Positions 22,887 to 50,701 of a DNA stretch of 64,000 nt are shown in pieces. Source of the stretch: Azolla caroliniana (lineage: Eukaryota; Plantae; Polypodiophyta); NCBI GenBank assembly GCA_043228905.1, contig JBHGNT010000004.1:372001-436000 (forward strand). The letters are read 5' to 3'. Position numbers and translations under genes: made by a program. The notes under the pieces are model-generated. The model saw only the letters and a program-made list of their open reading frames with translations, was not told the DNA's origin and ran no database searches. The first letter of the stretch is position 1. Every line of letters starts with the position of its first letter.

Positions 22887-22937
22887 GAGATTGACCTTGA
22901 ACCAACTCGTTGGTTCCTTATCTTTCTTCTTCCAATG

Positions 22938-26507: not shown

Positions 26508-27850
26508 TGTTGTTTGGTCGACAATAACTATTGCCGACACTGTATAGGTCGAACGTTGCTCACCGAACGTTCTATCAATGAATTGTGGTTTTAGACGAAT
26601 AGATACTAAAATGGTTGTAAACTTATCGATGATCAGTAAGCATCGAGATCACTATTTACGTAATAAGTTATAACAGAAAGGAAATAGATTGACAGAACGT
26701 TTCGTACACAGAGATTTCCTAAACTAACTTTATATTACTAAATAAAATGATAGCTCTTTACACTGCCTTCGGTTCCTCTTATTGGCAACCAAAAGGACTT
26801 CCTCATCAAGAAAACATATTGCCAAACATGGCAAGAACTACAAAATCCTGAACTAACTTATAATTTCAATTTCAATTTACTTCGGCCAGATGCTGACTCA
26901 TCGATCCTCTATACCGATCCGAAACCGACTCAGACTCCGAAAGTTCTTCATTTCTGATTACGACACTTCCCCACTTGTCTGGGTAACACTTGGCACGCCT
27001 GTGGGACAGGGCTTTGTCCGGCGAACCCCATGGTACCCCTTCTACTCCTGTTGATCCGAAGGAAGGTCCTCTAATTCATCCTTTGCGTCATCCTGCAGAA
27101 TATCGAACAATGAAGGTTTAGGTTGTTGCATATCCTCCTCGTCCTCGTCTTCGGTTTCTGTAAACGTGTTTGTATCTATGGTCATTGGTCTTGGTTTCTC
27201 CATTGTCGGTGCTTCCAGTCCCGGGGTCTGATTTCGCCTTTTGGATTCAAGGTTATCTAGCTAGATAGTTGTGTCGACATTATGTTTGTCGAATTCTTGC
27301 ATAATGCGACTAACTTCTTCTCAGTGACAAGCTGCTATCTCATACAAGTCTTTAGCAATATCTTCCTGAATAGTTGATATTGCTTCTTCTGTCATTTTGA
27401 AGAAACCTTGGCTGTGAGCCTTCCTATTGTCTCTGTTAGCCTGTAACAACTGAAGTTTAGCTACTTGTGCCGACCAGGTTTTCCAGCCTTTATCTATGAA
27501 CTCATTCACCATTTTCAAGGTGTTAAGTTTATGGCGTCTTAGGATGTCTTGAATTCTTTCCTCGGTTATACTCGCTTGAGAATGTGCTTTTGCTAGTGTT
27601 CTTCGTAAATCCTCAATTTGAGCATTCTTTTCTCCTTCTGTCTGTAACAACTTGTTTTGCGCCAATAATAGGTCAAGTCGCCTTTTTGCCAACACAACTT
27701 CCACTTGTGAACACCATCTTTCCAGAGTTGCTCGCCTTTTTGCCGACACAATTTCTTGGATCGGATTTCGGCTTTTTCAGCTCTAGCTTCCGCCGCCTTG
27801 AATGTTGCTTCTACTTGTTGTAGCTTTTGTTACCATTAACATGTTCGTGT
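26508..27850 (-). mobile_element. 3' end of another LTR element: LTR 26508-26965, PPT, and an upstream degenerate coiled-coil ORF
   Basis: Minus strand AAGTGGGGAAG-TGTCGTAATC ... CAAACAACA; ORF 27321-27749 is heptad-rich and continues past stops toward the PPT. Confidence 0.65.
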
Positions 27851-28195
27851 TCACAAGTGGAAGGATCGCGCATAAATGGAAGGATAAGGGAAATTTTAGG
27901 GCTTTTTCAATGATTTTACAAAACACATTGATACCAGTATCATACATGTTCAAACATACTATGAAAAAGGTTAAAAATCCACTATTTTCGTGATTTAGAA
28001 GTAACTAAAAAAAGACGAATTTCAAAAAGATACATTCTCAATTTATATCACAAACTTTACAACCAATGTTATTTTATAAGAAACGATTTTTTAGAAATCA
28101 TAAGAATTCAAAACACATGCTTTTATATTACTCGATTTGTTACAAGCGGAATGTAGTTACACTTAATAGCCAAATATACATTCATGATCACTCCT

Positions 28196-30979
28196 TTACG
28201 GAGAATCATTACTATAACTAATATACAATGATGATTCCTCCTCATCATCCTCGGATGTACCAATCAGTGCATTATCTTCGTCATAAACCAAATGGTTTGA
28301 CTCTAGATTATATGTAGTAGATCTCGTTTGCCTTTGACTCGAGCCACCTTGTAGACCTGGTAATTTTTCTTTTATTATATCTATTGTTGACTTCCTTAAT
28401 CGTCCGGCTTTTGTAAGTGTGAAGTCGTACACGATGATATCCACATCAGAGATATCAAGGGTCGAGGTGTTACGAATGTTTCGCTTCCTCTTCCTACCTC
28501 CCCTTCTTGTTGGGCATTCAATCATCTCCAATGTATACTTACCTGTAAAAGCATTTGCACTTCTAGTGTTGTACCAAATTATGAACATTTATAGACTTGA
28601 TCGTGTTTTCTATTTCATGCATTAACACTTCTAGAATTTTACCAACCCAAAATTGGTGGCCATGTGAGTTCTCATCAGCCGGCGTTGCAATCAACATCCC
28701 CGCGGTGAGCTCTTGCAAATTGCCTTGCCATCTAACTTCGGCTGCTTTGGTCATCCTTGGTCCCACATAAATGTCTCTTTGTTGTGGATGGACTAAGCTG
28801 TCATTAATCGCATTTACTAGTTGCTCCGGAGTTCTATTTACGCGATCATGTTGCAGCGACCATGTGAATGGCGTTTCCAAATTCCAATTATCAACAGATA
28901 CACAATTGTCTATAATTTCTTTCTGATCACTATAAAATACATCCCACCATGACGTGTCTTGTTGTGCGGCATATTTCTTGGCGGCCTCAATATGCTTTCT
29001 TTTTTCTTCTAAGGCTTGGAGCCATGACCGTTTTTGTTTTGATACCAAGTTGCTCTGCAACTGTCCTTTCTTCTCAATTGGCATTTGCTTAGCTCCATGG
29101 ACAATTGTACTCGGCATACAAAGTAATAACTGGCAACCACCTTCAGGTTCCCATGTTGTAGAAGATGAATATTGTTTAGCATACAAAAGTGTAGAACCAC
29201 TTATTCCATTTTTCTTTATCATAAAAATGTGATTGAAACTTATATTGTTTAACTGAGCAAGCACTTTAACATTCCCACCACCCCCATCTAATATATATCT
29301 CTTAAAGTCATATACCTCCTTCAAGTGTAACACTTTTGGGTGTGGTGTATATGCATCACAAATGACATCAAATAGTTTAGGTAAAGTGAAAGCATCATGC
29401 CGAGACAACTATTTGGAGAATGTGCTAAACATCTGATCTATATGGTCATGTGTGTGGCCAACCAAAAGGAAATTGACTTTCACTTTCCTAAACAATTCTA
29501 GGTTGACCAACATACTTAGATAGCCAAATACAGTTGAATTTTTGTTCTCTCTAGCAGTATTGTCCAATTGAATGTATAGAACAGGGGGGAAAGGTTGGCC
29601 CCAAGACATCAAAACTCGGTGAATCACTATAAGTGTTAGGTTAGGGTCATTGTGAACATTGGGGTAAGTAATGAAGATGTGAGGTCGAACAGACCTATTA
29701 TAAGCCAAGCATCCCACCAAGTGCATTTGAACAAGGCACTCATCATTGACATCTTTGGGGAGCCTCCGCATATGCGGCAAGCATGTCTTCTTCTGGTCCA
29801 TGCCATCTATCATTAAGCACATGTATTGTTCGGGCCTCTTCAAACACTTCTCTCTATGATGCATCGCCTTCTTTCGTTCTAAGGATTGTGCCTCACGATG
29901 CTCTTGTAGTAACTTCTTACTCGTATCCTTTTCCATTGATGTCTTTGCACCTTTAGCCAAACTTTTAAGATTTGCACAAATGGAGCAATACCCCATACGT
30001 ACTTTACGAGGAATAATAACATTTGAAAACCGAGCTCTCCATAATCTTGTGAATTGGCTATAGGTGATAGACTTATTACGTGAGCCCAGCATATCAGATC
30101 GATAGACATCATAAACTTCCCGACGTGTATAATTATTAGAAAGGTGCATCCTACCTGTAGTGACATTACTTCACAATTTAACTGAAAGTAAGTTTTCATC
30201 CAACCAATAGCATGTCTTCCAATTGCACCTTTCATACTTGGAACCTCTTTACAATTGAGCATCTGATCCCCGCTAAGTAGACGTTGTTGTACTCTATGTA
30301 GCCGCATGTTACTAACACATAACGCAATTTTGAATGCAACTCTACATATCTGTTGCACATGGAAGATATAATACTCGAATGATACTTTGATCCCTGTACA
30401 TTTGTCAGATACTAGTTGCATATGTGACCCGAGGTAAGTGTCTTGCTCATCACCAATCATCGAAAAATAGTATCGCCTTAATTCTCGCAACTTTGATTTT
30501 CCAATCATAGACATACAACCACGGGCACAACATATTTTTTTGACATCAAATCCAATCTGTTTATCTGATGTCACCAAGCTAAATCTAGCCAGACGAATTC
30601 TTCGTGGGATTCTTCTAATATGCATAGGGCTCCCAGATTTCTCTTCCTGCATAGAGGTTGGTGTAACCTTGTTACAATCTAATTCTCTGTTCTGACCATC
30701 GCCAATGTTATTCAATGTTTCCTAGGCACTACCTTCATTCTCCGTATCTTTATTAATATCGTATTCTTCAATAGAGAACTCTTCACATGTGTCATTATTT
30801 ACATTCCCTATAGATGAGCTCAGACAATATTCTTCGATAGAATATGGTGAGTCTGTCGACAAACAATATTCTTCAATCGAATATGGTGACTCTGTCGACA
30901 AACAATACTCTTCAGTAGAAAACGATGAGTCTGATGACAAACAATATTCTTCAATCGAGAACGGTGAATCTTCACTCAT
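28196..30979 (-). pseudogene. DDD-type transposase (Sola1-related, DGMDQ family), ~925 codons, 2 premature stops and 2 frameshifts
   Basis: C..C zinc motif (GYCSICANL), MIDGMDQKK, LYIQLDNTARENKN, FLLVGHTHDHIDQMFS. In-frame TAGs at 30722-30724 and 29409-29411; frameshifts near 30160 and 28590. Family name is from my recollection of motifs. Confidence 0.8.
30765..30975 (-). repeat. 36-bp coding tandem repeat (SPYSIEEYCLST) at the transposase N-terminus
   Basis: 4 full units plus 1 diverged unit visible in ORF 30722-30979. Confidence 0.85.
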
Positions 30980-30999
30980 GGCTTAGGGCTCTGTAAGTT

Positions 31000-31810
31000 A
31001 TGTGCTTAGGGTAAGGAAAAAAACTAATAAGCTCCTCTCTAAACATATACTCCTCTCTAAACATAAACTTCTCTCTAAACAAAAGCCAAATCAATAAAAT
31101 GTCTATATTATGTAATATTCTATTAATACAATACATAAAAATTTATTTTTAATAAAGTAATTGTATTTAAAATATCAATTATTATATAAACTACATCTAT
31201 ATGAAGTTAAATCAAGTATAATATAAATCTAATCATTAACAAGCCATGAATATGTTGGATTAATGTTAAAATCATTGGCTAATTAATGGCACCCATTTTG
31301 ATATAGAACCTTTCACTCATTGGTTCTTTAATGCTCACCATTTTAAATATTAGACTTATCAATCATTGGTTAATTCATGCCCACATCTTTAATACACAAC
31401 ATTTGAGAGTCATAAAAATTGTTGCTTTTAGTAATCAATCATTGGTACATTCATGAGCCTCTATCATTGTCTCCTTCATGACCTTTGAAATCATTGCAGG
31501 TTGTTATGACTATAAAAGATTGATCAATATGTTAGTTTGACTTTGTAATCATTAATGCAATCATAAGTTACTCTAGTTAATGTGACTGTGGTTACCAACT
31601 AACTATCCTCAAACTTACCAACCTTGGTTAAGGTGACTATGGTTACTTTAACCAATGTGGTCAATCCCTATAAATAGGAAGACCTCGTCATATTTCACTC
31701 ACAAGAGCGTACAGAGCGTACAGAGCACACAGAACGTACAGAGCACACAAAGCACACAGAGCACAAAGCACCAAAGCGCGATCTCCGCCTACACTGCCAC
31801 ACGATCAACC
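31000..31810. promoter_or_regulatory. probable divergent promoter region
   Basis: AT-rich with repeated (A)TCATTGG motifs; CCTATAAATAGG TATA box at ~31667, ACAGAGC repeats 31704-31770, ATG at 31811. Confidence 0.5.
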
Positions 31811-31896
31811 ATGTCTTCAAAGAGAATCGAGCGCGAGGACTCTAGGTAGGCCTCTGACACTGTGGACATTTTTGTAAATATGTTTTGTCGCTCAAG

Positions 31897-31962
31897 AACT
31901 CGATACGCCGTATCGAGTTCCTGTATACAATACAAACTTTATACAGGAACTCGATACGGCGT
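31897..31962. repeat. palindromic hairpin array, left part (units 1 and half of 2)
   Basis: GAACTCGATACG-C-CGTATCGAGTTC; unit 2 is split by the gypsy insertion. Confidence 0.85.
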
Positions 31963-32663
31963 TGTCGAGGTTTTCCTCGCGGATGCGTGGAATGAGGCGG
32001 GACCTCAGGGGTCCTGTACCGAAGAGCAAGAGAGAAAGGACAAGAGACCCACTACGTGCGAGCGTAGATTCACAGGGACACGGCCCTTCGATGCAAAGAC
32101 GGGAGTGGGACAGCGACACAAAGAGACACGAATGTATGTATGTATTAACAAAGACAACAACAAGAACACGGAAGCAACAAAAACACGAAGTCGGTTACAA
32201 CCGAACAGGCCGACGAACAGATGCCGATGCCTGTTCGTAAACGCACAGAAAGACAGGAGCAAGTTGGAGGTGCTGCTGGAAGCACTCGGGCATTCCTCAG
32301 AGCAGCGCGAGCCTCCCGAAACCTGCACAGAAGGAAGCTATGGAGTTTGCGAACCAGAGAGAGAGAGAAGCCTTCGCACGCAAACCGACAACACTTCGTC
32401 CTCGACTCTCCACGATCCCCTCCCCCTTCTCGTCTCCCTCCTTTTTATAGGCAAGGAAGGAGCTGTTTCCCCTTTACTTCCTACCCACTAAATCTACCCG
32501 CCTAGGATCTTCTATGGACAACATTCGAGAAGAGCCGGTTCCTACGCTCCTGTGCACCGATTCCGCTTGTGGACGGTTTTCTTCACGACATCCGCCCCCA
32601 CCTAACTGCGCATCCACCGGCATGCGCCAAATTGAGTCGAGACGGAGAAAACCGGTCCAGCCT

Positions 32664-35065
32664 TCATTCCCCGCCCGTCGGTTCTTCCTCGGTTTCGGAT
32701 CGTTCGTCGTCGCGGTCTAGGCCAACCGGATCCGGCTCGTCGTCGTGACGCTTCTTGAACGCTTTGATCCGCTTCCCAGCTACCGGTATCGTCATTCTCG
32801 TGTCGTCGAGCTCCGCCAGATGGTACGTCCCGTTGTCGTTGGCGCTTTGTACCATGTAAGGCCCGAACCACCTTCTTGCGAACTTCCGTGTCGCTCAGTG
32901 CTGGTTGTCAAGGCTGCTGTCGTAGACTAGCACCCAGTCGCCTTCCTCGATCTTCTTCGGTCGGAGCCGGTGTGTTCGGTCGAACCAGGCTTTGTTCCTC
33001 ATCCTTGCTTCCCGAAGCCTTTCCGCAGCCTGCTCCACGTCCTCCGGTCTTCGCTCGAGCTGTCGTATACGCGCCGTCAACAGTTCCTCCCGGCTCATCT
33101 CGTCTCTCCAGTCCACGGTTGCCCACGAGGAGATCGTACGTTCCATCGGCATGACCGGCTTCTGCCCAAACATGAGTTCTGCCGGCATGAATCCGGTTAC
33201 CGAATTGTGCGTAGTTCGGTCCGTCCACAACGCGTAAGGCAACAGCCGCGGCCAGTTCCCGACTTGACCTCCGCATGCCCGAACTAACGCCTTGACGATC
33301 GGTCTGTGTCCGCGCTCCACCTTCCCATTCGCCTCCGGATTGTACGCAGTGGTAAGCGAGAGCTTGACTCCTAGCCGGTCGAACAACTCCTCGGCCTCTT
33401 CGGCGTCCAACTCCCTGCGATCAGCCACGATCTTCCCGACACACCCGTACCGGCATATCACGTCCTCGATCAGGAACCGACATACGGCCGCGGTCGTTTT
33501 GTTCTGATGGGCTCGGCCTTCCACCTGGTTCGTCAGATCTTCTCGAGCCAGGACCAGATACCGCATCTGTCCTACTCCCATCGGCATCGTCACCAGGTCT
33601 ACCATCCATTTGAAGTGGATGGTCGGAGGGTATGTAGGGTGAAGCTCGTCCCGATGTCGGACTACGGAGTGCATCTGACAGCTCTCGCAAGTCGTCACGA
33701 ACCGATGCACATCCCGGTACAGTCCCGGCCACCAGTACTTCCCCTTTATCTTCGCGAACGTGGCCCACGTTCCACGGTGTCCGGCCCAAGGGTGTCGTGG
33801 TAGCCCGTCAACAACTCCTCCTGTTCTTCCTTCATCGCCACCACCCGGAGCGGGACGCCGTTCCTCTTCTTCGGGTGCTTCCATAAGTATCCGTCCCGGA
33901 GAAAGAATCGGTAAGCTTTCTTCCGGATCCGGTTGGCCTCGTCCTTCGTCCACGATGCATCCGGCGTCATCGTCCTCAAAAATCCACCGATCTGGAGCCA
34001 CTTGCCGTCGTACTTGCTCTCGTCGAAGTCGTTAAGTGCCGGAGTGCTCGTCCCATCGGTCGTCACGTACGCTGCCTCGAAGAAGTCCACGCCGACTTCT
34101 TGATCCTCCGAAACCATGCCGCCCTCGTCATCAAACCTCGCCCTCGAAAGCATGTCGGCCATGGCGTTGTCCTTTCCGGAAATGTGCCGTATTTCCGGGT
34201 CCAGGGACTTGATGTACGCTATCCACCTGAGCATTGCCAGGTTCGGTGTCCCGCATCCGGAAACCATGCCGAGAATTGGGAGGCAATCCGTCTCGATAAT
34301 CACTTCTGTCCCGATCAGGTAGTCTTTGTCGGCCTTTACTGCCGAAACGATACCCCAGAGTTCGCGTTTAACCTGGGCGTACCCTCGCTGTCGCTCACTG
34401 AGGACCTTCGCGCCGAATCGGATCGAGAACCGAATGCCGTCCTCGTCTTCTTGGTTGACGACCCATCCGATCCCGGTTGGACTCGTATCCACCATTATGT
34501 ATACCGGGGTACCCTTCTCGTAGACAGCCTTCTGGAGCGCCGGTGCTGCCGCAAGAGCTTCCTTCAGCTTCCGGACCGACTCCGTGTGCTCGTCTCGCCA
34601 CTCGAAATTTCGCCCTTTCTTCAGCAACCCGTATAGCAGCTCCGCCACGTAGGTGTAATGCGGGATCCATATGTGGTAGAACGCGCATGCCCCCAGGAAC
34701 CTCCGAACTTCCGTAACCGAGCTACAATCGGTCTTCATCGCGGAGATGGCTTCTACCTTTGCCGGAGATGGCTTCCGGCCATAAGGTCCACATAGGTGTC
34801 TGACCACCAGGATTTCCGATTGCCCGAAGGCCGATTTCTCCCCGGAGAAGGTGAGCCTCGCATCCTCTAGCCTTTGTAGCACCTTCTCGCAGTCGTCAAT
34901 GTGTGTCGCCACGAATCGCCGGCATCCGTCCGGCCCAACTGTCTCGTCCTTCTCCTCCACCGGGCACCCCTTGATCGGGATGTCGTCTAGAAACGGCATG
35001 GTGATGTCCGGGATGCAATCCCTCAGTACCTTGTTCATTGCATTCACCATGTGGGCTACCGAGTT
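32664..35065 (-). pseudogene. gypsy pol 3' part: RT (FLDD), RNase H, integrase; frameshifted
   Basis: MPFLDDIPIKG, VDTSPTGIG, ETDCLP, WAGHRGTWAT..C..CQ, WMVDLV, IVADR, NGKVERGH. Confidence 0.9.
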
Positions 35066-35070
35066 GGTCC

Positions 35071-38000
35071 TGTCGAATACAAGTGTATAATGGACGTATT
35101 CACACTATCCCTTTGTATAGCTCAAGTTTGGGCCATTTGTGTAATTAGCATAAATGGTAGTTGCCCTAAGTTTGTCACTATATAAAGTGACCTAGTAACC
35201 TTTTTGTAAGGTTGGTTGTATTATTGTTTTCTATTGAATAGAAAGAGTCTTGTGTGCCTCCTCCTCTCTCTCTCTCTCTCTCTATCTCTGTGCACGATCG
35301 TGGAAACTGTCATACGCAGGTACTCAACTAGAATCGAATGCTACTTGATCTTCCGCATTGACGGCCTTGTCTTCAACATTTGGTATCAGAGCGAGGTTCC
35401 TCAACCCGCTGTCGGCCGTCGTCTCAGCCTGCACAGCATTCGGTTCTTCGCTTCATCGCAGCCTGCACAGTATTCGGCCTTTCGCTTCATCCTAGTCTGC
35501 AAAGCATTCGGCCTCTTGCGTCATTCGAAGAAACAGAGAAGAAAGTAGGCAAACACAAGCTTAAATCTCGCTGCATTAGATCATCACTCGGAGTAAGCCA
35601 GTCGGCTGTACTCTACTTCCCTGATCGTAACTGCTTGAGGTGGGCTTTCTGCACAACGACGACTTCAAGGACAACCCCAGTTCGCGTTTCATTCGATTGG
35701 ACAATAATCGGAAGGACCAGTCGGTTCCATTGCTCTCACCGTTGAAGTCAACCGAAACCGAATCGGCTTGAAGTACTGTCGGATCGTTAAATCTAGGTTC
35801 AACTCGACTAAGACAGTTGTCGGTAGTCAATCCGAACCAAATCCCCGATTCTCCGTAATCAACATCACTTGTGTCCAACTTCGGCTAGAACGACACTGAG
35901 TGGGCCAAACCGCTGCACTTCACCAAAGTTCGTAGCCGACTTAGTGCAGAGTCATGACATCAACATCCGGCTCGTCAGAAATGAGTCTACGAAAGTTCGA
36001 TGGATCGAACTTCAACTTCTGGAAGGAGCAAATGCAGGACTATCTCATAGTCAAGGGGCAAATCGATCCCATCGAAAATGAAGAACCTCCAGAAGGATAC
36101 AAACCAATTGAGTGGCAGAAGCTGGACAGAATCGTCCGCGCCACGATTCGGATGCACCTATCGGAATTGGTATACTTTACGGTGCAATCGTGTACGACAG
36201 CATTCGAACTGTGGAAAACACTGTCGGACACCTACGAGAAGAAGGTCGCTGCAACGAAGATGTTTCTGATCCGGCGCCTCTACAACTTGCGGATGAAGGA
36301 ATCAGATTCGGTTCAAGCACATCTCAATGAGTACGAAAGCATAAGCTCCCAAATCTCATCTCAGGGGACGGCAATCGAGGATGAACTCAGAGCAATGATA
36401 CTCATGAGCAGCCTTCCCTCATCATGGGAAACTTTCGTCACAACTGTGTGCAACGCGTCAACCACGGCTGTTAAATACTCCGAAGTCACGAGCGCAATCC
36501 TGACCGAAGCAGCTCGGAGAAAGTCTTTCGCCAAAGACTCAACAGACGACGCTTATGTAGTACAAGGTTCGACAGACCGATCGAACATACGAGGAAGAGA
36601 TTCCTCACGGCAGCCGAACAATCAGCGAAGACGGAGCCAGTCACGGGATAATCGAATCTGCAACTATTGCAAGAAACCCGGACACATCAAAGCCGACTGC
36701 CGCGCACTCAAGAACAAGAACGACAAGTCTCAGAAATCAGACAAGAAGAGTGGCCGGCATGAGGAGATCAATTACGTCAGCTTCTCAGCTGATGTGCTAC
36801 CAAACGACCCGAATATACTATCAATCGAAAATCCAGTCGGATCAGAAGTTCTGCTCACGACTGAAGAATCGAGCACATGGCTCTTAGATTCGGGCGCGTC
36901 ATTTCACGTGACTCCTCATCGATCCCAATTTCGGCAATATACGATCCGTCACTCCGACTCAGTTCGAGTCGGCAACTCGCAACACTGTGACATCATTGGA
37001 ATCGGCACAGTAGAGCTCAACCTTGCAGGTGGCTCTACACTTGTACTTCACAATGTCCGACATGTACCCGAGCTCTCAAGGCCATTGATCTCAGTCGGAC
37101 AACTAGATGAAGACGGCATTCGTGCCGGTTTTTGTTCGGGAGGGTGGACACTCCACAGGGGGAACCTCCTGCTTGCTAGAGGACCCAAGATACACTCACT
37201 GTATTCGTTACATGTTACGCTCAGAGAGGGTAACCTGTTTTTGGTGGATATTCCTGTGTCATCACTATGGCACAGAAGATTAGGACACCTCAGCAAGGCC
37301 GGCATTACGCACCTATCTAGAGCCGGATACATCCCTAAACTCTCCTTCTCAGACCATCAATTCTGCGAACATTGCCAGTATGGCAAACAAGCAGCCGCAT
37401 CACACCCGACATCAGCACCAAGAGAAACGAGACCTCTCGATTTAGTCCACTCGGACGTCTGTGGCCCAATGCCGCATCAGTCTCTCGGCGGTGCCTCTTA
37501 CTTCGTCAGTTTTATTGACGATTCGACTCGAAAGGTGTGGGCTTATCCAATTCGCACCAAAGATCGTGTCTTCTCGATCTTCTCCGACTGGCTCGCTATG
37601 GTAGAAAATCAAACTGACCGAAAACTGAAATGCTTTCGGACCGACAATGGGGGAGAGTTCAAATCAGAAGAATTCGTCAAATTCTGCCGACAACGCGGCA
37701 TCCGACGTGAATTTACGGCACCACACAGTCCGGAGCAAAACGGGATTGCAGAACACATGAATCGGACAATCCAAGAACGGATAGTTTCCATGCTCCAACA
37801 CTCCGGATTGTCGGATGGCTTCTGGGCAGAGGCTCTACTCACAGCAGTACACATAATCAATATGTCGCCAAGCAGACCTCTAGGACTTCAAATTCCTCAG
37901 GAACTATGGATCGGCAGTAAGCCGAATTACGACAAGCTGAGGATCTTCGGATGCGAGGCGTACGCCCTTATTCCGAAAGATGATCGCCGAAAACTTGCAC

Positions 38001-40486: not shown

Positions 40487-43330
40487 GGTCCCTCCTTGTG
40501 GCAGGGTACACATTTGCACTAGGCCGAGGGGGGTTCGCATCGTCGTACTGTCTCTGCTCTCCACGGCTAGCTGGAACTGGTCGTACCCCGAGTACAGATC
40601 ACCGACCGAGTAAATCGACCTTCCGGCGAAGGCCTCTGCGAACTCGTCTATGGTCGGTCCGATTCCTGCGTTCCGAATGGTCACTCTGTTGACCGGCTGC
40701 AGGTCCTGAATGAAGCGCAATGTTCCGTTTTTCTTTGGTACGGTAAACCATCGGTTCGAGTATGGGGCACTCGACGGTTCGAGAATGCCCATATCGACTT
40801 TTTGCCTCAATAGCTCCATCAACTTCGGGATGTGGGCTCTCGGTACTGGAATCGGCTTGAGATTCCATGACACATGTGGTACCGTGAATATCACCATCGG
40901 CTCCACAATCGTCGGGTCTACGCACCCGATCTCTTCCGGCGAAAACGCGAAGGCTTTCCCGTGCCTTCCGAGCATTCTCCGAAACCGGCCTTCCTCCGCA
41001 GGCAGTAGGACCCGCCCCCACCGATCTTGAGCCCCCGGAGCGTCCCGTCGGTGAAGGTGTGTCCTATGCAGGCCGGATCTCGTAGACTGGGGTCCGATGC
41101 AACCCCTCTGATTCGGGACTCGCTGCCCTCCGGTAAGGGTGCCGCGACGGGCCTTACCTTCCGGTCCACAGTTTTGTACTTCGTGCTAACTCGGGCCGTC
41201 CGATCCGACCTGAGCCCCCGACTGAAGTTCGCGATGACTTTGTACATCTCTTCAGAACATACCGGTATCGTCCGGTCTTCATTAAGGTCTTCTCCGGCTA
41301 CCTCCCCTAGCATTCCCAAGGTGTCGTCGAATGAGACCGCCTCCACAGCTCCGCTGATTTCCTTGTCCGGGCCGAGAACTCCGCTCGCTCGAAGTCGCAC
41401 TTCCGCCCTTGTCTTTTCTCGGCCGACGATGCCGACTATCATGCACCCTCTGTTCGGGCAGGCCCCGTGCAGTTCCTCGGTGGCGCGCGTCGCCGCCCGT
41501 ATCTTCCACACGTGCTTGGTGTTGATCGGCCACTTTCCCTTCTTATAGAAGTCCATTGACATCAGGTTTATTTCCGAACCGTGGTCCACCAATGCCACCA
41601 CCGGCTCCTGAACATCTCCGATCTTCACCGGGGTCTCCGTGGTTGCTCGGGCCCAGTGAGGCCTTGAATAGTGGCTCTCCGCCCACTCATCTTCCAGCGC
41701 CATGTCGTCGATGTGCGTCGTCCGCACTTCCACCGGTCTTTCCGGTTCCGTCTCCGTTGACAACCTCTTCTGTTTCACCAGGTCTACAATGGAGTCGTGG
41801 AACTCCTTCTTGGCGATCCCTAACACCTCTCGCAATGACAGCTCCACTTTGCTGTCGAGGATCCGTTCTTCTAGGACCTTTCGTAGGTCCGTAGTCCTTT
41901 CTATCTCCGTCCCCAGTCGGTATCCGCCCTTCCTGGGGTTATCTCGCGAGCTGGACCTGCCGGCATCGTTCCGTCGTTGCCCGAATCGGGTCTCGTACCG
42001 TTGTGAGGGCCCGGCCGCTCCGGCTTTCCCCACTCGTTTGTCTTCTACCAGAGCTTCGTAGTTCCGGCAGGCGGCTTCTACGAAGCCCGTCTTCTCCTCG
42101 ACCGGATCGCTCCACCCGGTTATTTCCCGGACCCGTCTCTCAGCGCGGTCCGTTTCATCTTTCCTTAGCCGTGCGCCGGTAAGACCTTCCAGCATTGCCG
42201 ACCAGAATCCGTCTTTGCCCTCTGTTCGGGCCTCGCTGCCCCCGACCCGAATTCCGGCCGACGCCGAGTAGTGGATGGTCTCTACGTGTCGGGCCGCTGC
42301 CTCTTCCATCAGTCTCTTCATACCTCCTCGCCCGTCGTTTCGGTTCAGGGCCCTCCTGGTGTCGCCGGCGTGCACCCGGCCTTCCCACAGGTACACCACC
42401 CGGTTCCTCAACGCCTCTGCGAAATCGCCGCAGTCCTTCCGAATGTGGCCGACCTCGTCGCACCACATGCACCTGTTCCCCGCTGCCGGCCGTCGGTCAC
42501 GAGCCGGTTCGCCGCCTTCCCTTCGAGTCTGGGCGATCTGGAGATCCTTTATCGCCCGCGTCAACTCCTCTAGCGCTGCTCCTCCGGACGAGCCATTGAC
42601 CATGCCGGCCGAAGCCGGACCGGTTTCGAGCCATTCCCGGGTTTCTTCCCTTCGCACTTGCGGTGCCGGTTCAAGCCTCCTTGCTGTGACAAAGCCCGCA
42701 CCGGCCGCCCCGTTGTCAGCCCATTCTCGCCGTTTGTCGAAACGGCCACAGACTCTCTTAACCGCAACCCAGTCGGTTGTCAGCCCGTCTTCGGTTTCCA
42801 GCAAGGAGCCAACTTGATCTCTGTCCCGCTCGTCCACCGACTTGACGAACAATAGGACCCGGCTCGTATCCAGAACGGTTCAGTCAAGCGCCGAAAGGCG
42901 CGCAAAGCGTTCTTCGAACTCCCGGAGGAGTGACAACGCGTTTCTTCCCTTGCCAGGGGACTCCACCCATTCCATGAAGTCCCGTTTCGAAAGCCGGAGC
43001 GCGTCGTCCAACCCGTATTTTTCTAGGAGTCGGCCTTCGAACTCCTCCCAGGTACGGCTCTCCGCCCGCACCTCGAGCACCTCCGCATGGATGCTCAGCA
43101 TCGCCACTCGAGGAAACCCGGCAAGACGTCTCTCTTCCGGAATGTCCCGCATCAGCATTTCTGCCCCGTAGGACGCCAAATACTTCGTGGCATCCTTTCC
43201 GCTGAACCGGCCGATCGTACCGATGACCGCCTCAATGGCTCTGTCGAGGGCGCCGGTGCCCTCGCGTGCACTCAATATCCGATCCACGGCCGAAGCCATG
43301 GCCTCTGCAAGATCCGACCCCTTCATCTTC
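40487..43330 (-). pseudogene. gypsy gag-protease-RT 5' part with stop and frameshifts
   Basis: CMWCDEVGHIRKDC knuckle, ALVDHGSEIN protease, RT start PHVSWNLKPIPVPRA; TGA at 42880 and a frame change near 41000. Confidence 0.9.
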
Positions 43331-44003
43331 TGCTCTTCTGCCGCCTCCTTCACGTCGGGTTCACCAAGATGTCGAGGTTTTCCTCGCGGATGCGTGGAAT
43401 GAGGCGGGACCTTAGGGGTCCTGTACCGAAGAGCAATAGAGAAAGGAGAGGGAAAAGACCCACTACATGCAAGCGTAGCTCCACAGGGACACGGCCCTTC
43501 GACGCAAAGACGCGAGTGGGACAGCGACACAGAGAGACACGAATGTATGTATGTATTAACAAAGACAACAACAAGAACACGGAAGCAACAAAAACACGAA
43601 GTCGGTTACAACCGAACAGGCCGGCGAACAGATGCCGATGCCTGTTCGTCAACGCACAGAAAGACAGGAGCAGGTTGGAGGTGCTGCCGGAAGCACTCGG
43701 GCATTCCTCAGAGTAGCGCGAGCCTCCCGAAACATGCACAGAAGGAAGCTATGGAGTTTGCGAACCAGAGAGAGAGAGAGAAGCCTTCGCACGCAAACCG
43801 ACAGCACTTCGTCCTCGACTCTCTGCGATCCCCTCCCCCTTCTCGTCTCCCTCCTTTTTATAGGCAAGGAAGGAGCCGTTTCCCCTTTACTTCCTACCCA
43901 CTAAATCTACCTGCCTAGGATCTTCTATGGACAACATTCGAGAAGAGCCGGTTCGTACGCTCCTGTGCACCGATTCCGCTTGTGGACGGTTTTCTTCACG
44001 ACA

Positions 44004-44130
44004 GCGTATCGAGTTCATAATTTGTTTTTGCTTTTTAAACAGGAACTCGATACGGCGTATCGAGTTCCTGTTTAAAACCTACACTTTAAACACGAACTCG
44101 ATACGGCGTATCGAGTTCGTGTTTAAAACC
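44004..44130. repeat. palindromic hairpin array, right part (rest of unit 2, units 3 and 4)
   Basis: TTTAAACAGGAACTCGATACG-G-CGTATCGAGTTCCTGTTTAAA and TTTAAACACGAACTCGATACG-G-CGTATCGAGTTCGTGTTTAAA. Confidence 0.9.
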
Positions 44131-44137
44131 TAAACTT

Positions 44138-44722
44138 TAAAATCATGTCTTTTTTGTTAAGTTTTAAGTTATAAGTTATAGCGAAATAGTCATCAGTAGC
44201 TAATTAGCTGTACAAATGTATTTACAATAGTATGCCATGGAATTTGTAGCTACAAGTAGCACTTACCATGTTCTCTTGTAAAACAAACATGTATTTCGCG
44301 AAAACAGATCAATAAATTCGTTTGGAATCAATTTCTTGTATACAGTCTGCTTTCTGTGCTTCTTTCTCAATAAAATCATGTCTTTTTTGTTAAGTTTTAA
44401 GTTATAAGTTATAGCGAAATAGTCATCAGTAGCTAATTAGCTGTACAAATGCAGCTAATTAGCTGTACAAATGTATTTACAATAGTATGCCATGGAATTT
44501 GTAGCTACAAGTAGCACTTACCATGTTCTCTTGTAAAACAAACATGTATTTCGCGAAAACAGATCAATAAATTCGTTTGGAATCAATTTCTTGTATACAG
44601 TCTGCTTTCTGTGCTTCTTTCTCAATAAAATCATGTCTTTTTTGTTAAGTTTTAAGTTATAAGTTATAGCGAAATAGTCATCAGTAGCTAATTAGCTGTA
44701 CAAATGCAGCTAATTAGCTGTC
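44138..44722. repeat. ~235-255-bp tandem repeat, ~2.4 copies
   Basis: Unit starting TAAAATCATGTCTTTTTTG at ~44138, 44371 and 44626. Confidence 0.9.
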
Positions 44723-44851
44723 AATAGCTAAATAGTCATCAATAGAATGAAATCAACAATCTGCAACATATTCCTCAAATTACACAGTAGATAAGTACAG
44801 TGGGAACAAGTAATTAAATTCTTCATTGAATAATGTCATCTCTTTACATAT

Positions 44852-45906
44852 TTATAAATTACCATTGGAAATGTCTACAAATCTCCTATAAACAGCTAAG
44901 CTCTTGCTAGTCAGTGGAACGAGTCTACATATATTATCCGCATATTGAGCTCGGTATGGAGTCCACAACCATGCACCTAGTTGGCAGCTCACTGTTTGCA
45001 CCAGGTACTGTTCAGGCATTTCCTCGGGTAGAATGAGACAGCATCTCCGAATATTGAAGTAGTGTCGGAAATGTTCTGTATCCAAAATCAATGTATTGTC
45101 AGCATTATATTCAGGCCAAGTAGCCCAAAAATCAGAAAGCCTCTTGAATCTTGCAGCTTCCATCTGCTCACAATTTTCTCGTGCCCATTGACCTTTAAAA
45201 CGACTTCGCCATTTTGGGAAGAATCTTGCCAAACACTTCCACACATCTGATTTTGGTTTTTCACTCCAAATAAACAAATCGAAGTACTCCACAACCCACT
45301 CTAGAAACTGATTTGCGTCCCTCCTTGGCTACATATATCTCACACTCATCAAGACTTTATCCAGCTCCAAGATCAAGGCTCTTCGCTCGACTTCTAGTGG
45401 TTTAGGTTTCCATTCCTGAAACTAAGCCGCTGTTACACCATTTTCTGGTAGGATACGATCAATCTCAATCAGCTCAGGTTCGGCTGACACAACTGGTGTC
45501 CTTTTCCTCTTTAAACCCCTAGTCGACTGTGTTGGGCCTAGCTTCACATTCTGGTGCTCTTGTTTTGTCGACTTAGTTATCAATCCTTGGATTACCTCAG
45601 TGCATGTAGCTACTGTTCTGCTCGATATCAGTCCACTGGTATCACATGCTGCATCTACCTGCAACACCAAGTCATCCGTGCTACATGTTGCATCTACCTG
45701 CAACACCAAGTCATCCGTGCTACATGCTGCATCTACCTGCAACACCAAGTCATCCGTGCTACATGCTTGATCAACTTGTGTGACCAGATCACTTGTGTCA
45801 GTTGCTACATCTACTTTCAAGATGGGGCCCTTTAAACATGCCGCAACATCAACAGTATCCACACTGCCATTGGCCTTACGAGCAATAGAATCAAACCCTT
45901 TAGACT
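44852..45906 (-). pseudogene. 13-aa repeat region fused to an FCP1/NIF-like (HAD) phosphatase-homology domain; one stop and one frameshift
   Basis: RALILELDKVL...RRDANQFLEWVVEYFDLFIWS...WARENC...FKRLSDFWATWPEYNADNTLILDTE...N...CLIL follows the NIF pattern (LDLD.TL..RP...FL....F...IWS...W.R..C...K.L..VW...Y...NT..IDD). TAG at 45422-45424, frameshift near 45328. Confidence 0.65.
45640..45790 (-). repeat. 39-bp coding tandem repeat (TDDLVLQVDAACS)
   Basis: 3-4 units visible in ORF 45422-45985. Confidence 0.9.
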
Positions 45907-46155
45907 CTGCAACATCAGAAAACACCAACATATTCACACTCACAAAGTAACTACTAGTCTCACAAAACAATATCCTGAACATCAAAGAGTTTCAGTCATA
46001 GAACAACACTCTTCAAATTATCTTGGAAAAACATCATAGAGTTCCATTACATAATGTGGATCAAGCAACAACCAATCTGAGGTTTTACTTGTCCAACAGG
46101 ATAGTAAAACTTCATAAAACCCTAGCAAAATCCCTAAGCTAACGATCATATCCAA

Positions 46156-49100
46156 CTAAACAGTATTTCGCTCCACTACGTCTGGGCCCCTTGACCGAGT
46201 AACTGGTCTTGTTCCCGATCGTGGCCCCTTCTTCAGCCTTTTTCTGGTTGGTTCCCCATTTAGCCTTGCTTCTAGGACCCAATGCGCAAGTGTGTCCTCC
46301 TCCGACAACCTTCCCATCGCCTCAGCAGCTAATTGCACATCAGCCGTTTCTTGAACTAGCTTTTCAAGTACAGAGGGATCTGTTTGGACATTTTCAGTAG
46401 TTGGGCTCGGTGGGGTGGAATCAAGGTCTTGAGACTCGAAGAAATGTTGCATCAAGTGTTCATAAACACTGTTGTTGTGAACCTCAGTTTTACATGTTGT
46501 TTCCACTATTTCATGGCATTTCACATCGTTGCCTAATTCAGTACACTGTTCCAAAAGAATAGGGTGCAGCTGATCTGAAGGAGATGTGATAGCAGGACTC
46601 TTACTTTCAGCCACATTGGCAGTAGTATCCTCATCTGTTGCAGCATCATCAGCACCAGACACATCATGTGCCGTCCTTAATCCACAAGATTCTACAATAA
46701 CATGACAGTTATTTAGGATAGCTAATTAGCTACTTTACTAAACTATGGTAGAAGCTAGGATAGCTAATTAGCTAGTACGATAGCTAATTAGCTAGTATGA
46801 TAGCTAATTAGGTACTTTACTCAACTATGGTAGTAGTTAGGATATCTAATTAGGTACTTTACTCAACTATGGTAGTAGTTAGGATAGCTTATTAGCTACT
46901 AGGACAGCTAATTAGCTGCCAGTAGCTAATTAGCTACTAGGATAGCTAATTAGCTGCCAGTAGCTAATTAGCTACTAGGATAGCTTATTAGCTACTTTAC
47001 ACAACTATGGCAGTAGCTACTAGGATAGCTAATTCGCTAGGATAGCTAATTCGCTAGTAGGATAGCTAATTAGCTACTAGGATAGCTAATTAGTTGCCAG
47101 TAGCTAATTAGCTAGTAGGATAGCTAATTAGGTACTTTACTCAACTATGGTAGTAGCTAATTAGCTAGTAGGATAGCTAATTAGCTACTAGGATAGCTAA
47201 TTAGCTGCTAGTAGCTAATTAGCTACTAGGATAGCTTATTAGCTACTTTACACAACTATGGCAGTAGCTAATTAGTTACTAGGATAGCTAATTAGTTGCC
47301 AGTGGCTAATTAGCTAGTAGGATACCTAATTAGCTTTTTTACACAACTATAGTACTAGCTAATTAGCTAGTACCATAGCTAATTACCTACTAAGATAGCT
47401 AATTAGCTAGTAGGATAGCTTATTAGCTACTTTACACAACTATAGTAGTAGCTAGGATAGCTAATTAGCTACTTTACTAACTATGGTAGTAGCTAGGATA
47501 GCTAATTAGCTACTTTACTAACTATGGTGGTAGCTAGGATAGCTAATTAGCTACAATGAAAGCTAATTAGCTACTTTCTCAACTATGTAGTAGCTAGGAT
47601 AGCTTATTAGCTACTAGGACAGCTAATTAGCTGCCAGTAGCTAATTAGCTACTAGGATAGCTTATTAGCTACTTTACACAACTATGTCAGTAGCTAATTA
47701 GCTACTATGATAGCTAATTAGCTAGTAGGATAGCTAATTAGCTAGTAGGATAGCTAATTAGTTGCCAGTAGCTAATTAGCTAGTAGGATAGCTAATTAGC
47801 TTTTTTACACAACTATGGTACTAGCTAATTAGCTAGTACCATAGCTAACTAGCTACTAGGATAGCTTATTAGCTACTTTACACAACTATGTCAGTAGCTA
47901 ATTAGCTAGTAGGATAACTAATTAGCTAGTAGGATAGCTAATTAGCTAGTAGGATAGCTAATTAGTTGCCAGTAGCTAATTAGCTAGTAGGATAGCTAAT
48001 TAGCTTTTTTACACAACTATGGTACTAGCTAATTAGCTAGTACCATAGCTAACTAGCTACTAGGATAGCTTATTAGCTACTTTACACAACTATGGCAGTA
48101 GCTAATTAGTTACTAGGATAGCTAATTAGTTGCCAGTGGCTAATTAGCTAGTAGGATAGCTATTTAGCTTTTTTACACAACTATGGTACTAGCTAATTAG
48201 CTAGTACCATAGCTAATTAGCTACTAGGATAGCTAATTAGCTAGTAGCTCATTAGCTGCCAGTAGCTAATTAGCTAGTAGGATAGCTAATTAGAAAAGAC
48301 TAAGCTTATTAGCTACAGTATGGTATACCTGTTTGTTTTCTCCACTCATTTGGTAGAGTTGTACTGCAATCTCCCAAACAGAATGCAGCAATTCGACAGG
48401 CATGTTGAAAACAAAGCAGATGGTATGTGTGGTTGCATGGTTGTAGGTGAACCAACAAAGACGCAGTTTTGTCCTCCACACCTAACCCGCAAGCGATGCA
48501 ACGTGCTTGAACTGTCAATAAATCATTTTCTGGTTCTACTTCATTTGGTAAGGGAGCAAGAATGTTCAGGTCCAAATCCTGTCTGGTCCTTACCATTCCC
48601 TCCACAAAATGTAGCTTCTTCTTAAGGCAGCTAACTACCTGTTCTTGATGAATGTATTGTTCCTTCAACGCAACAGAGAAATTTACCGATTAATTATTCT
48701 TGTTGTTGAAAGATACACCAACTTTGCTCAGGAATCGTTAACTTACTTGAAGCTTATCCAAATTGTAATCTGCAACAGTATTTACACCTAGAAGGTCCAG
48801 GTTCATTGAAAGAACCTGGATCTCTATTTGCAGTTCTATTTTACGCTGGGGATCCAGTGGCCCCTCTAATTCAAGCTCCTGTTGCGCAACCTATTCCAGA
48901 TAATGCTTGATTAGCACATTTTACCCGTTATTTATAACACAATCACATACCAGCAAAACAATAGTTACCTGAATCTTAATTCTAATTGTTGTAACAACAG
49001 AAGTAACTTTGCTCTCCATTGCAGAAGCCATTGTGGCTTTCTCTAAATCAGTCTTAAAAAATGCCAATGTCCTACAGGCTTCATGGACATTTTTTAGCAT

Positions 49101-50235
49101 ATAGCTAACCAATGTCTCACCTGTATCATCGACATTGGCTTTCCTTGGGTGTCGGTGTGGTGTATGCCCCCGGTCTTGCTGGGAGTCGGCAGTTGCATCA
49201 ACAGCTGCCATGCTCCAAAATCTGTCTATTTTTTGTGCCAAGGTCCCCATCTTTCGGCATCTTTTTACCGATGCCTCACCATAGACTGCCCAAGCTACCC
49301 TATACATTTCAGGGTCTCTAGATTCCTTCGCTGTTTTGCAGTACTCATATGCAAATGCTCTAGCAAATGAAATTGACAACTCATTGTTGACTGGGATCTC
49401 CTGATGAACTTTCTGGTGCAGTCTCATGCAGTCATCGTACAAGTCGGCTCGTACATGCTTCAGCTTGACCTTGCCTTTGACTCTAGGCACTGTATATACT
49501 GTCATCCAGTCTATATCACTGATCAATTTATCACTTAGGACAGCAGGGTCAACACCCTCGAGTGACAGACCATAGGTGTTGTGGAAGTCCTCCTTTGTCT
49601 CGCAAAATTTTGCGAAGTTTAGCACTCTCGTATACGGAGGAACGAGCCATCTGAAATATCATTTCAGAAATCAGAAATAGTGCAAAATCAGAATATGTGA
49701 GAATCAAAAACCCCAATCAACAACAACAAAAATGGTGCAAAATCTTTAACTTAGCAAATCAGAAACCCTAATCATAATTTGTATTCAGAAATTTGAAATC
49801 AGAAACCCTAATCAAAATCTGTAATCAGAAGTTTGAAATCAGAAACCCTAATCAAAATCTGTAATCAGAAGTTTGTAACCAGAAACCTTATTCAGAAATT
49901 CTAATCAGAAATTTATAATCAAAAACCCTAATCAGAAATTTCAATCAGAAACCCTAATAAAAAATTTCAATCACAAACCCTAATCAGAAATCCTAAGCAG
50001 AAATTTATAAACAAAAACCCTATTCAGAAATTCTAATTTGTAATCAAAATTTGTAACCAGAAACCCTATTCAGAAATTCTAATCAGAAATTTATAATCAA
50101 AAACCCTAATCAGAAATTTCAATCACAAACCCTAATCAGAAATTTCAATCACAAACCCTAATCACTAAAGACAGGATTAAACACAAAAAAAGTAATATAA
50201 ACACACCTGTTGCTACTCCCCGATTTGCGAGACAT
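46156..50235 (-). CDS. spliced accessory gene, 574 aa: unknown N-terminal domain, coiled coil, RING-like zinc finger, acidic tail; exons 50207-50235, 48969-49650, 48747-48890, 48329-48662, 46156-46691
   Basis: Four GT-AG introns with matching phases (2,0,0,1) give a stop-free 1725-nt frame. RING-like CIAC...PCNHTYHLLC...C...C. It may splice further into 44852-45906, but I found no clean phase-1 donor. Confidence 0.75.
46715..48295. repeat. palindromic minisatellite built on TAGCTAATTAGCTA
   Basis: Dozens of copies of the 14-bp perfect palindrome with TAGGA / TTTACACAACTATGG linkers; fills intron 46692-48328. Confidence 0.95.
49755..50165. repeat. AATCAGAAACCCT-type degenerate minisatellite (telo-box rich) in an intron
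   Basis: Repeated AAACCCTAATCAGAAATT units inside intron 49651-50206. Confidence 0.85.
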
Positions 50236-50701
50236 CCTTGTATGGGACTCCAAGGACTTCGCCCTATTCGATTTTGGGGAAATATGAATCGGCACCAAAG
50301 TTCAGACAGTAGTCAAAAAGAAAAAACAAATGTTTGGGGTTTCTGTAACTGAAACATACCTGGACGATGATCGAGCGGGTTCTGTGTTGTAGCTCTCAAT
50401 CTGCAATGTCGATTTTTTGCTGTTGCGGGAGCTACGTCTGCGTTCGTGCTCTGAGTACTCCATCTGCGTTCAAAATCAGACTTAGGCTAAACAGGAAATT
50501 GATGACATTGAAGTCGACCTTAGATGATGGTGATATTCCCCAAGTTCCACTACGTCTGAAACAGAAGTTCAAATATTTGAGTTTTTTCATAAATTAGTTT
50601 TTCAAATATTTGATTTTCCCACAAGAAAGACTAGCTAAACAAATAGCTAATTAGCTATGGCCATTTTAGTAGCTAATTAGCTATAATAGTGTTTCCACTC
50701 G

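What the first reader, a model, noticed from the sequence alone, without database searches (positions are those of the whole stretch)
27854..50701. Candidate giant Sola1-like DNA transposon carrying its own regulatory cargo (RING protein, pseudo-phosphatase, hairpin transcript)
Seen: removing the nested 31963-44003 insert leaves one contiguous ~10.8-kb block. It holds a DGMDQ/QLDN/GHTH-DQ transposase, a divergent promoter with a hairpin array, and a multi-exon RING gene plus an FCP1-like domain. The TAGCTAATTAGCTA motif occurs at ~44200-44720, 46715-48295 and next to the right end (50644-50683). The block is bounded by CAAGTGGAA / TTCCACTCG (8/9 inverted match; the mismatch fits CpG decay), where unrelated retroelement sequence resumes. 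Known: Sola elements are DDD transposons usually described with the transposase alone, and some plant DNA transposons carry anti-silencing accessory genes (VANC of VANDAL Mutators). Inference: this is a multi-gene autonomous family with E3-ligase/phosphatase-like accessory factors that I do not recognise as described. The link between the transposase half and the cargo half rests on contiguity and the short TIR only.
Basis: partly seen in the sequence, partly recalled or inferred. Interest (0 to 1): 0.85.

Follow-up and report, generated by a model that had tools for sequence, protein, structure and literature searches.

The report
Two cargo transposons fused by deletion
This stretch is not one giant jumping gene but a one-off fusion, likely made by a deletion, of halves of two common plant transposon families; the RING-finger and phosphatase-like genes belong to the second family, which has kept them under selection and would likely use them to recognise its own repeats and escape silencing.

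Summary
The pieces are real, but they are not one element. The left half (27838-44141) belongs to a Sola1-like family A of about 440 copies. The right half (44138-50714) belongs to a Sola2 family B of about 320 copies. Each family has its own TIRs and 4-bp TSDs (10 of 10 and 6 of 6 full copies). None of 20 A copies carried RING/NIF, and none of 20 B copies carried the A transposase. The junction has 4 bp of microhomology and occurs once in the genome; the window's TSDs do not match. The proposed 9-bp TIR is a chance internal match. Intact A copies carry a ParB-amino-methyltransferase gene, a design already published for Ectocarpus Sola1-1. Intact B copies carry a Sola2 transposase plus a convergent gene (domain X, coiled coil, RING) and a motif-degenerate NIF ORF. 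This cargo is under purifying selection and recurs beside Sola2 transposases only 30-49% identical. I did not find it in my literature searches. Domain X has a weak DUF1985/PMD (VANC-type) lead. Self-recognition and anti-silencing are untested. This scan noted both families before, on other DNA of this genome.

The parts
27834..27837 (.). Left 4-bp target site (CATT) of the family A insertion, inside an unrelated repeat family; its partner copy is lost
   Evidence: the host repeat continues past this CATT in 5 of 5 other copies examined
27838..27866 (+). True left TIR of family A (Sola1-like), about 29 bp
   Evidence: 874 exact terminus matches genome-wide, 0 for the reversed control
28196..30979 (-). 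Family A Sola1-like DDD transposase (DUF7869), pseudogene here: two premature stops, two frameshifts; a 927-aa open frame in copy L056
31811..31845 (+). Predicted first exon of family A's ParB-amino-methyltransferase gene, head-to-head with the transposase; the rest of the gene is absent from the window
   Evidence: splice phase fits exon 2 of intact copy L042 (read from sequence, no RNA)
31893..31962 (.). Family A palindrome array (GAACTCGATAC..CGTATCGAGTTC), left part, in the predicted intron 1
   Evidence: 3-9 units in 3 intact A copies, 0 in 3 B copies
31963..44003 (-). Nested gypsy-like LTR retroelement (TSD GCGT; LTRs 95.4% identical), itself holding a copia element at 35071-40486 (LTRs 99.7% identical); not part of either family
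44004..44141 (.). Family A palindrome array, right part, cut off at the junction
44138..44141 (.). A/B junction: 4-bp microhomology TAAA, single copy in the genome
44138..44735 (+). Family B 255-bp tandem repeat between the convergent genes; each unit holds the last codons of the missing Sola2 transposase (CIYNSMPWNL-stop at 44217-44249)
44852..45931 (-). NIF/FCP1-like ORF of family B. Motif I reads ELDKV in place of DxDxT. Two premature stops here (45424, 45331). Likely a separate gene, possibly the last exon of the RING gene
46156..50463 (-). Family B accessory gene, predicted six exons (50463-50360, 50263-50207, 49650-48969, 48890-48747, 48662-48329, 46691-46156), about 618 aa: domain X, coiled coil, RING-H2-like finger, acidic region, basic tail
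   Evidence: exon borders inferred, no RNA
46713..48293 (.). TAGCTAATTAGCTA palindrome array in predicted intron 5; a second such array lies in the Sola2 transposase intron of intact copies
   Evidence: 58-69 motifs in 3 B copies, 0 in 3 A copies
49757..50164 (.). AAACCCTAAT-rich 13/40-bp array in predicted intron 2
50690..50714 (-). True right TIR of family B (Sola2; GGG..CCC termini), with two array motifs just inside it at 50644 and 50670
   Evidence: 635 exact terminus matches, 0 for the control
50715..50718 (.). Right 4-bp target site (AGCA) of the family B insertion, inside a copia RT frame; its partner copy is lost

Best explanation
The block is a single-copy fusion of the left half of a Sola1-like element and the right half of a Sola2 element, likely joined by a deletion repaired at 4 bp of microhomology, and the RING and NIF genes are conserved cargo of the Sola2 family whose domain-X protein would likely bind the family's own palindrome arrays to counter silencing. 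Shown: two families, each with its own TIRs, TSDs, transposase, second gene and private array; a unique junction; purifying selection on the B cargo; the same convergent layout beside distant Sola2 transposases. Inferred: two independent insertions (A into one repeat, B into a copia element) were joined by loss of the DNA between them, so the hybrid has mismatched ends and is immobile. Predicted and untested: domain X is a remote DUF1985/PMD-type DNA-binding module; it dimerises through the coiled coil on the palindromes and brings a RING E3 to the element's chromatin; the NIF protein is a catalytically dead binder of phospho-proteins such as the Pol II CTD.
For: Chimera: 0 of 20 and 0 of 20 cross-links; TSDs in 10 of 10 A and 6 of 6 B full copies; junction 1 match; 0 of 45 mixed pairs. 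Cargo integral to B: X in 20 of 20, RING in 19 of 20, NIF motif in 16 of 20, Sola2 motif in 17 of 20 copies. An older subfamily has the same layout with TIRs and TSD TTAT. dN/dS is 0.22 for NIF, 0.25 for the X exon and 0.15 for the transposase. Amino-acid changes were 31 vs 50 expected (NIF) and 80 vs 108 (X), 0 of 2000 context-matched simulations as low. X-RING-NIF relatives are expanded in Adiantum nelumboides (77 of 77 hits). 14 of 80 metagenome Sola2 loci had X, RING or NIF hits, all downstream on the opposite strand. A profile from distant loci alone matches fern X (hhalign 97.4%, E 1e-11). Related elements carry different arrays at the same intron position. ESM Atlas lead for X: DUF1985 0.86 and PMD 0.83.
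Against: The DUF1985/PMD link is below the Atlas's 0.9 lead threshold. Neither family appeared among the 25 families listed for 48 and 52 X relatives. No TIR-plus-TSD pair was found in 19 distant loci, so cargo and transposase being one element there rests on orientation. 17 of 28 distant loci with at least 3 kb downstream had no cargo hit. The copies sampled were top hits to the ends, so they favour young copies. The junction is seen in one assembly only. No binding, ubiquitin-ligase, expression or methylation data exist.
Confidence: 0.55

Rival explanations
1. The chimera and the cargo assignment are right, but the B accessory proteins act in transposition rather than anti-silencing. X-coiled coil-RING would be a partner that binds subterminal and internal motifs and helps assemble, target or degrade the transposase, as TnpA does for CACTA or the Myb protein for Harbinger.
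For: Array motifs sit just inside both TIRs (window 50644, 50670; left end). The cargo is kept in nearly all copies. RING ligases can control transposase turnover (general knowledge).
Against: Most motifs lie in kilobase-long intronic arrays far from the ends, as for VANC targets (PMC5735166). Sola2 elements with other or no second genes are reported (PMC3627910).
Confidence: 0.25
2. The A/B junction is an assembly mis-join between two repeat-rich places, not a real deletion.
For: Both breakpoints lie in tandem arrays of high-copy elements, and the junction is in one place only.
Against: The join is clean at 4 bp of microhomology between unrelated arrays, with no shared long repeat to mis-assemble on. 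The missing halves with the matching TSD and host sequence were not found elsewhere: 0 of 4 and 0 of 4 candidate termini (exact patterns only).
Confidence: 0.08
3. The RING and NIF sequences are captured host fragments riding passively, Pack-MULE style.
For: NIF motif I is degenerate; many copies are broken (NIF intact in 11 of 18); no expression data.
Against: Purifying selection between subfamilies and species. The same position and orientation beside transposases 30-49% identical. All 10 of the long X relatives looked up are unnamed or TE-like hypothetical proteins, and none is a recognisable single-copy host gene.
Confidence: 0.07
4. One reading: a mobile Sola1 family carrying RING and NIF.
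For: Contiguity in this window and a shared AGTGGAA within the two TIRs.
Against:: no second copy, no TSD, ends from two families, transposase dead.
Confidence: 0.02

Closest known systems
Sola2 DNA transposons (Repbase; alignment in PMC3627910 Additional file 10, part 1 of 2 read; passages)
   Same: Family B transposase has the CxCxxH, DF(A/S)ENY, Q..HW, SDG.A.Q(F/Y)K and (S)HGK..DG.G..VKR motifs; short TIRs; 4-bp TSD. Some Sola2 elements carry a second gene (Fanzor1).
   Different: The second gene is X-coiled coil-RING (plus NIF in fern-like elements), convergent and spliced, with kilobase palindrome arrays in introns. TSDs are not strictly AWWT.
Sola1-1_Ec32 of Ectocarpus (PMC12477816; passages read)
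   Same: Sola1 element with an opposite-strand gene fusing a ParB-like domain to an N4/N6 DNA methyltransferase, proposed to bind and modify its own sequence. This is the design of intact family A.
   Different: Family A is about 9 kb, in a fern-like land plant, with about 440 copies and relatives in Ceratopteris and Ginkgo. The gene body is absent from this window. No direct sequence comparison with Ec32 was possible.
VANDAL/VANC anti-silencing Mutator elements (PMC5735166; passages read)
   Same: Accessory gene plus family-specific short motifs in tandem arrays within introns and termini, turning over between related families.
   Different: Different superfamily; family B motifs are palindromic; cargo has RING and NIF. 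Homology of X to DUF1985 is only a lead, and binding and demethylation are not shown.
Plant mobile domain proteins MAIL1/MAIN with PP7L (bioRxiv 10.1101/2024.09.27.615353; passages read)
   Same: TE-associated domain reported as structurally similar to VANC DUF1985, acting with a phosphatase-like partner against silencing; X's Atlas neighbours include PMD.
   Different: X is about 130 aa, has no PMD profile hit and is paired with a NIF-family rather than a PP7-family protein.
Plavaka PAG2/PAG3 accessory genes of Bostrychia (bioRxiv 10.1101/2025.02.11.637652; passages read)
   Same: ParB-domain accessory gene next to tandem inverted repeats, proposed self-binding; parallels family A's palindrome array.
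   Different: Different superfamily and domain pairing; no RING or NIF.

Membership tests
   Ends AACACG.. and ..TTTACCC come from two families; the 9-mers are internal and out of register
   CATT vs AGCA
   0 of 20 and 0 of 20; junction 1 match; 0 of 45 mixed pairs on C1-C2
Sola2 (family B) | Sola2 transposase signature motifs | tested here: met
   By-eye match of the ORF to the Repbase Sola2 alignment; invariant D221, D304, D345, H339 in 45 relatives
Sola2 (family B) | TIRs and 4-bp TSD | tested here: met
   6 of 6 full copies and one older-subfamily copy; 4-bp TSD per PMC3627910
Sola2 (family B) | Phylogenetic placement among Repbase Sola2 | not testable with these tools
Sola1 (family A) | Sola1 catalytic motifs | tested here: inconclusive
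   Second-Asp motif QLDNTARENKNS fits the profile's DncagqNkns. The first-Asp region IDGMDQKKTCLP fits fdlqkvlslP only loosely. The third-Asp part of the profile was not read.
Sola1 (family A) | TIRs and 4-bp TSD | tested here: met
   10 of 10 full copies; 4-bp TSD for Sola1 is recalled from Bao et al. 2009, which was not held
Beta-class amino-methyltransferase (family A cargo, outside the window) | Motif IV before motif I, PF01555 | tested here: met
   PF01555 34.3 bits, above cut-off; DIPY in 9 of 11 copies holding that exon; Ginkgo relative hits CcrM, MboIIA, RsrI
Beta-class amino-methyltransferase (family A cargo, outside the window) | Methyltransferase activity and target base | not testable with these tools
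   DIPY departs from DPPY and SPPY (PMC8885841)
FCP/SCP (NIF) phosphatases | NIF domain | tested here: met
   PF03031 E 3e-7; weak UBLCP1 hit, E 0.98
FCP/SCP (NIF) phosphatases | Catalytic DxDx(T/V) motif (recalled) | tested here: not met
   ELDKV in both subfamilies; relatives read DLNGV/DLNGL
RING-H2 E3 ligases | C3H2C3 metal ligands | tested here: inconclusive
   CxxC..CxHxxHxxC..CxxxC pattern present; Pfam RING hits weak: E 0.096 here, 8e-4 in a relative
VANC-type anti-silencing factors | DUF1985 domain | tested here: inconclusive
   Atlas 0.86 DUF1985, 0.83 PMD; not among listed Pfam families
VANC-type anti-silencing factors | Family-specific motif arrays in non-coding parts | tested here: met
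VANC-type anti-silencing factors | Sequence-specific binding and hypomethylation | not testable with these tools
   Needs EMSA, ChIP and methylome data

The most novel reading that the evidence does not exclude
Sola2 transposons of seed-free land plants carry an ancient self-recognition gene: a remote DUF1985/PMD-like DNA-binding domain joined to a coiled coil and a RING E3, with a dead NIF phosphatase added in ferns. It binds each family's private palindrome arrays and ubiquitinates silencing factors or histones there. The VANC/MAIL-type anti-silencing domain would then predate flowering plants, move between transposon superfamilies and come with a built-in enzyme.
Probability: 0.25. Interest if true: 0.82.

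Novelty: new variant of a known kind. Interest (0 to 1): 0.5.

Why it matters
The element as proposed does not exist, which matters for annotation: contiguity plus a 9-bp inverted match joined two families. The right half does expose a Sola2 accessory gene that is under selection and recurs across distant plant Sola2 elements, and my searches found no description of it. If domain X is related to VANC's DUF1985 and binds the arrays, it gives a testable system for how transposons counter silencing outside angiosperms. VANC's mode of action is, as I recall, still open, and here an enzyme domain (RING) is attached. The left half adds a land-plant case of the published Sola1 ParB-methyltransferase design.

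Tried and rejected
RNA evidence: no RNA holder listed. Three contig sets were laid with no piece bridging the junction and no splice joints; this is no evidence either way. Fold searches of the X plus coiled-coil model (pLDDT 87.6) gave no Foldseek match at E <= 0.001 in PDB or BFVD. VIA-align returned only coiled coils for residues 170-244, so X itself was barely tested; hmmsearch against PDB sequences likewise. The Atlas gave no usable hit for the window's own exon. PMD had no match in the own genome, with a control that rang nowhere; the three weak DUF1985 hits (E 0.7) lie in retroelement pol frames and are spurious. The fern X profile alone did not reach the distant loci (best E about 1); one search used a wrong reading frame and was redone. 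Linkage in Adiantum by neighbouring locus tags failed: only one A. nelumboides hit among the 120 listed Sola2 relatives. No TIR-plus-TSD pair in 19 distant loci. A single fused X-RING-NIF model gave no solution with strong splice sites; in-frame joins need weak sites. The reciprocal halves of the two elements were not found. The TIR shuffle test allowed offsets up to 2 while the shared 7-mer is offset by 3, so it does not test that 7-mer. One 'Sola1' flag for copy L004 is a chance 4-residue match; DNA comparison shows none. Bao et al. 2009 and Yuan and Wessler 2011 were not held.
Full report
Observation. The window lies in a 523-Mb genome whose nearest named protein relatives are from ferns (Ceratopteris, Adiantum). 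The listed pieces are present: a DUF7869 transposase, dead here; a nested LTR element at 31963-44003 with TSD GCGT; a palindrome array; RING-like and NIF ORFs; and TAGCTAATTAGCT at 38 places. The best 40 of 1115 and of 651 candidates stop at 27838 and 50714.

Linkage test. I extended 20 of 29 fetched left-end loci and 20 of 29 fetched right-end loci by 10 kb, choosing mostly those on large contigs. These are top hits, so young copies are favoured. None of the 20 left-anchored copies matched the RING/NIF half, and none of the 20 right-anchored copies matched the left transposase. Each set is self-contained. Family A is about 9 kb with termini AACACG..CGTGTT; 10 of 20 had both ends in reach and all 10 had a 4-bp TSD. 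Family B is mostly 10-12 kb with GGG..CCC termini; 6 of 20 had both ends in reach and all 6 had a 4-bp TSD. Exact terminus counts were 874 and 635, with 0 for the reversed controls. On C1 and C2, 45 of 45 facing pairs were A-A or B-B.

Junction. Family A sequence runs to 44141 and family B sequence starts at 44138, sharing TAAA. A 31-mer across it matches once in the genome. The window's target sites differ (CATT, AGCA). The left flank is a separate repeat family and the right flank a copia RT frame. Four candidate termini with each target site did not continue the expected host sequence. The simplest reading is two independent insertions joined by a deletion. An assembly error is not excluded.

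Family A. Intact copies carry, head-to-head with the transposase, a spliced gene with a ParB-fold part (Foldseek to ParB and Noc, E 1e-5) and a beta-class amino-methyltransferase part. The ParB exon was in 15 of 20 copies and a methyltransferase motif in 13 of 20; DIPY was intact in 9 of 11. Relatives occur in Ceratopteris (60%) and Ginkgo (38%, fused to PF01555). The window keeps only the predicted first exon and part of the intron-1 palindrome array. This design is published for Ectocarpus Sola1-1_Ec32 (PMC12477816, passages). An earlier scan note led me to that paper.

Family B. Intact copies encode a transposase whose motifs match the Repbase Sola2 alignment. Relatives include Ceratodon, Calypogeia, Cryptomeria, Taxus and marine animals. 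Convergent with it is a predicted six-exon gene of about 618 aa: domain X, coiled coil, RING-H2-like finger, acidic region and basic tail. A NIF ORF follows. I favour NIF being a separate gene (about 65%), because joining it needs weak splice sites and the preceding exon ends in a similar basic tail and stop in four relatives. Adiantum gene models fuse them. NIF motif I is ELDKV in both subfamilies, so it is likely inactive.

Is the cargo functional? An older subfamily has the same layout. Between majority sequences of 18 and 30 copies, dN/dS is 0.22 for NIF and 0.15 for the transposase. The X exon gives 0.25 against locus L122, and the RING exon 0.45 against one decayed copy. Copies against their own majority also show dN below dS, so I ran a context-matched neutral control. 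Observed amino-acid changes were 31 vs 50, 40 vs 76 and 80 vs 108, with 0 of 2000 simulations as low in each. Domain X has 138 relatives at E <= 0.001, and a full-length Adiantum relative gave 77 of 77 hits in that species. Among 80 metagenome Sola2 loci (best 80 of 426), 14 loci (12 distinct places) had X, RING or NIF hits, all downstream and on the opposite strand. That includes 11 of the 28 with at least 3 kb downstream; three of the RING hits are weak (E 0.009-0.03). A profile grown from one distant locus, seed chosen by eye and no fern rows included, aligns to fern X at 97.4%. I could not find the ends of those distant elements (0 of 19).

Mechanism. Related Sola2 loci carry different tandem arrays just upstream of the large transposase exon, as VANDAL families do for VANC (PMC5735166, passages). 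The Atlas placed an X relative near DUF1985 (0.86) and PMD (0.83) clusters, a lead only; Pfam scans did not support it. PMD and DUF1985 are reported as structurally similar (bioRxiv 10.1101/2024.09.27.615353, passages). I commit to X binding the family's palindromes as a dimer and bringing the RING to the element's chromatin to counter silencing. I am about 90% sure of the chimera and the cargo assignment, about 55% that X binds the arrays in a regulatory role, and about 25% that it is a DUF1985/PMD homologue.

Novelty. Ten full-text searches (listings and abstract starts, with passages where cited) showed no description of a Sola2 element with an X-RING or NIF gene. Sola2 with Fanzor cargo is known (PMC3627910, passages). 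Repbase, Bao et al. 2009 and Yuan and Wessler 2011 could not be read, and bioRxiv supplements are closed, so an existing library entry is possible. Other papers seen as passages only: PMC8885841, PMC4738411, PMC5751038 (supplement search and parts 56 and 59), PMC4455052, PMC5753468, 10.1101/2021.02.12.428880 (40), 10.64898/2026.08.24.746577 (94), 10.1101/2025.02.11.637652 (102). The scan had already noted family B once and family A at least eight times in this genome; those notes are not independent support.

Verdict. The proposed element is a chance chimera. Its halves come from a known design (A) and from an apparently undescribed Sola2 accessory-gene system (B). Interest 0.5; new variant of a known kind.

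Noticed in passing
window 27854-27862 and 50693-50701: The TIRs of the two unrelated families share AGTGGAA, 18 and 15 bases in from their ends. It may be coincidence or a shared host-factor site; my shuffle test did not cover that offset.
   Followed up: partly
window 31963-44003: The gypsy-like insert has LTRs only 95.4% identical, although it sits in an A copy about 98% identical to its family. This may reflect CpG decay or a recombinant element. It inserted into the palindrome array with a 4-bp TSD.
   Followed up: partly
L051 and L038 flanks (G000:C3:4.90-4.92 Mb; C19:4.38 Mb): Family A copies are inserted into the motif arrays of older family B elements; L051 lies within a duplicated B left half.
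   Followed up: partly
window 21034-25702: Long inverted repeats (420 and 296 bp arms, 94-95%) with 24-bp AACCGG-rich arrays around a 429-aa ORF (22938-24227, minus strand) with no Pfam hit; a possible foldback or Mutator-like element.
   Followed up: no
window 14072-14590: Cluster of 76-132 bp inverted repeats and a 30-bp tandem unit; hairpin-like or MITE-like.
   Followed up: no
window 52385-59321: Chromovirus-type gypsy element with a single 1479-aa open frame and LTRs identical over the 300 bases compared, so very young.
   Followed up: no
window 15326-17345: Direct repeat of at least 300 bp, 100% identical, 1720 bp apart; a small LTR-like element or local duplication.
   Followed up: no
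window 26168-27837: The left flank belongs to another repeat family of at least 40 copies (71-93% identical) with a 151-aa minus-strand ORF that has no Pfam hit.
   Followed up: partly
(ParB-like part of Ginkgo relative P0029): Nearest Atlas clusters (0.95-0.96) are unnamed proteins of molluscs, sponges and cnidarians, plus fungal DUF3723, so similar ParB-like proteins may be widespread in eukaryotes.
   Followed up: no
L157 13234-13605, L167 12693-13335: Sola1-like transposase fragments (HDKMDHSK motif) lie next to Sola2 loci in distant metagenome contigs.
   Followed up: no
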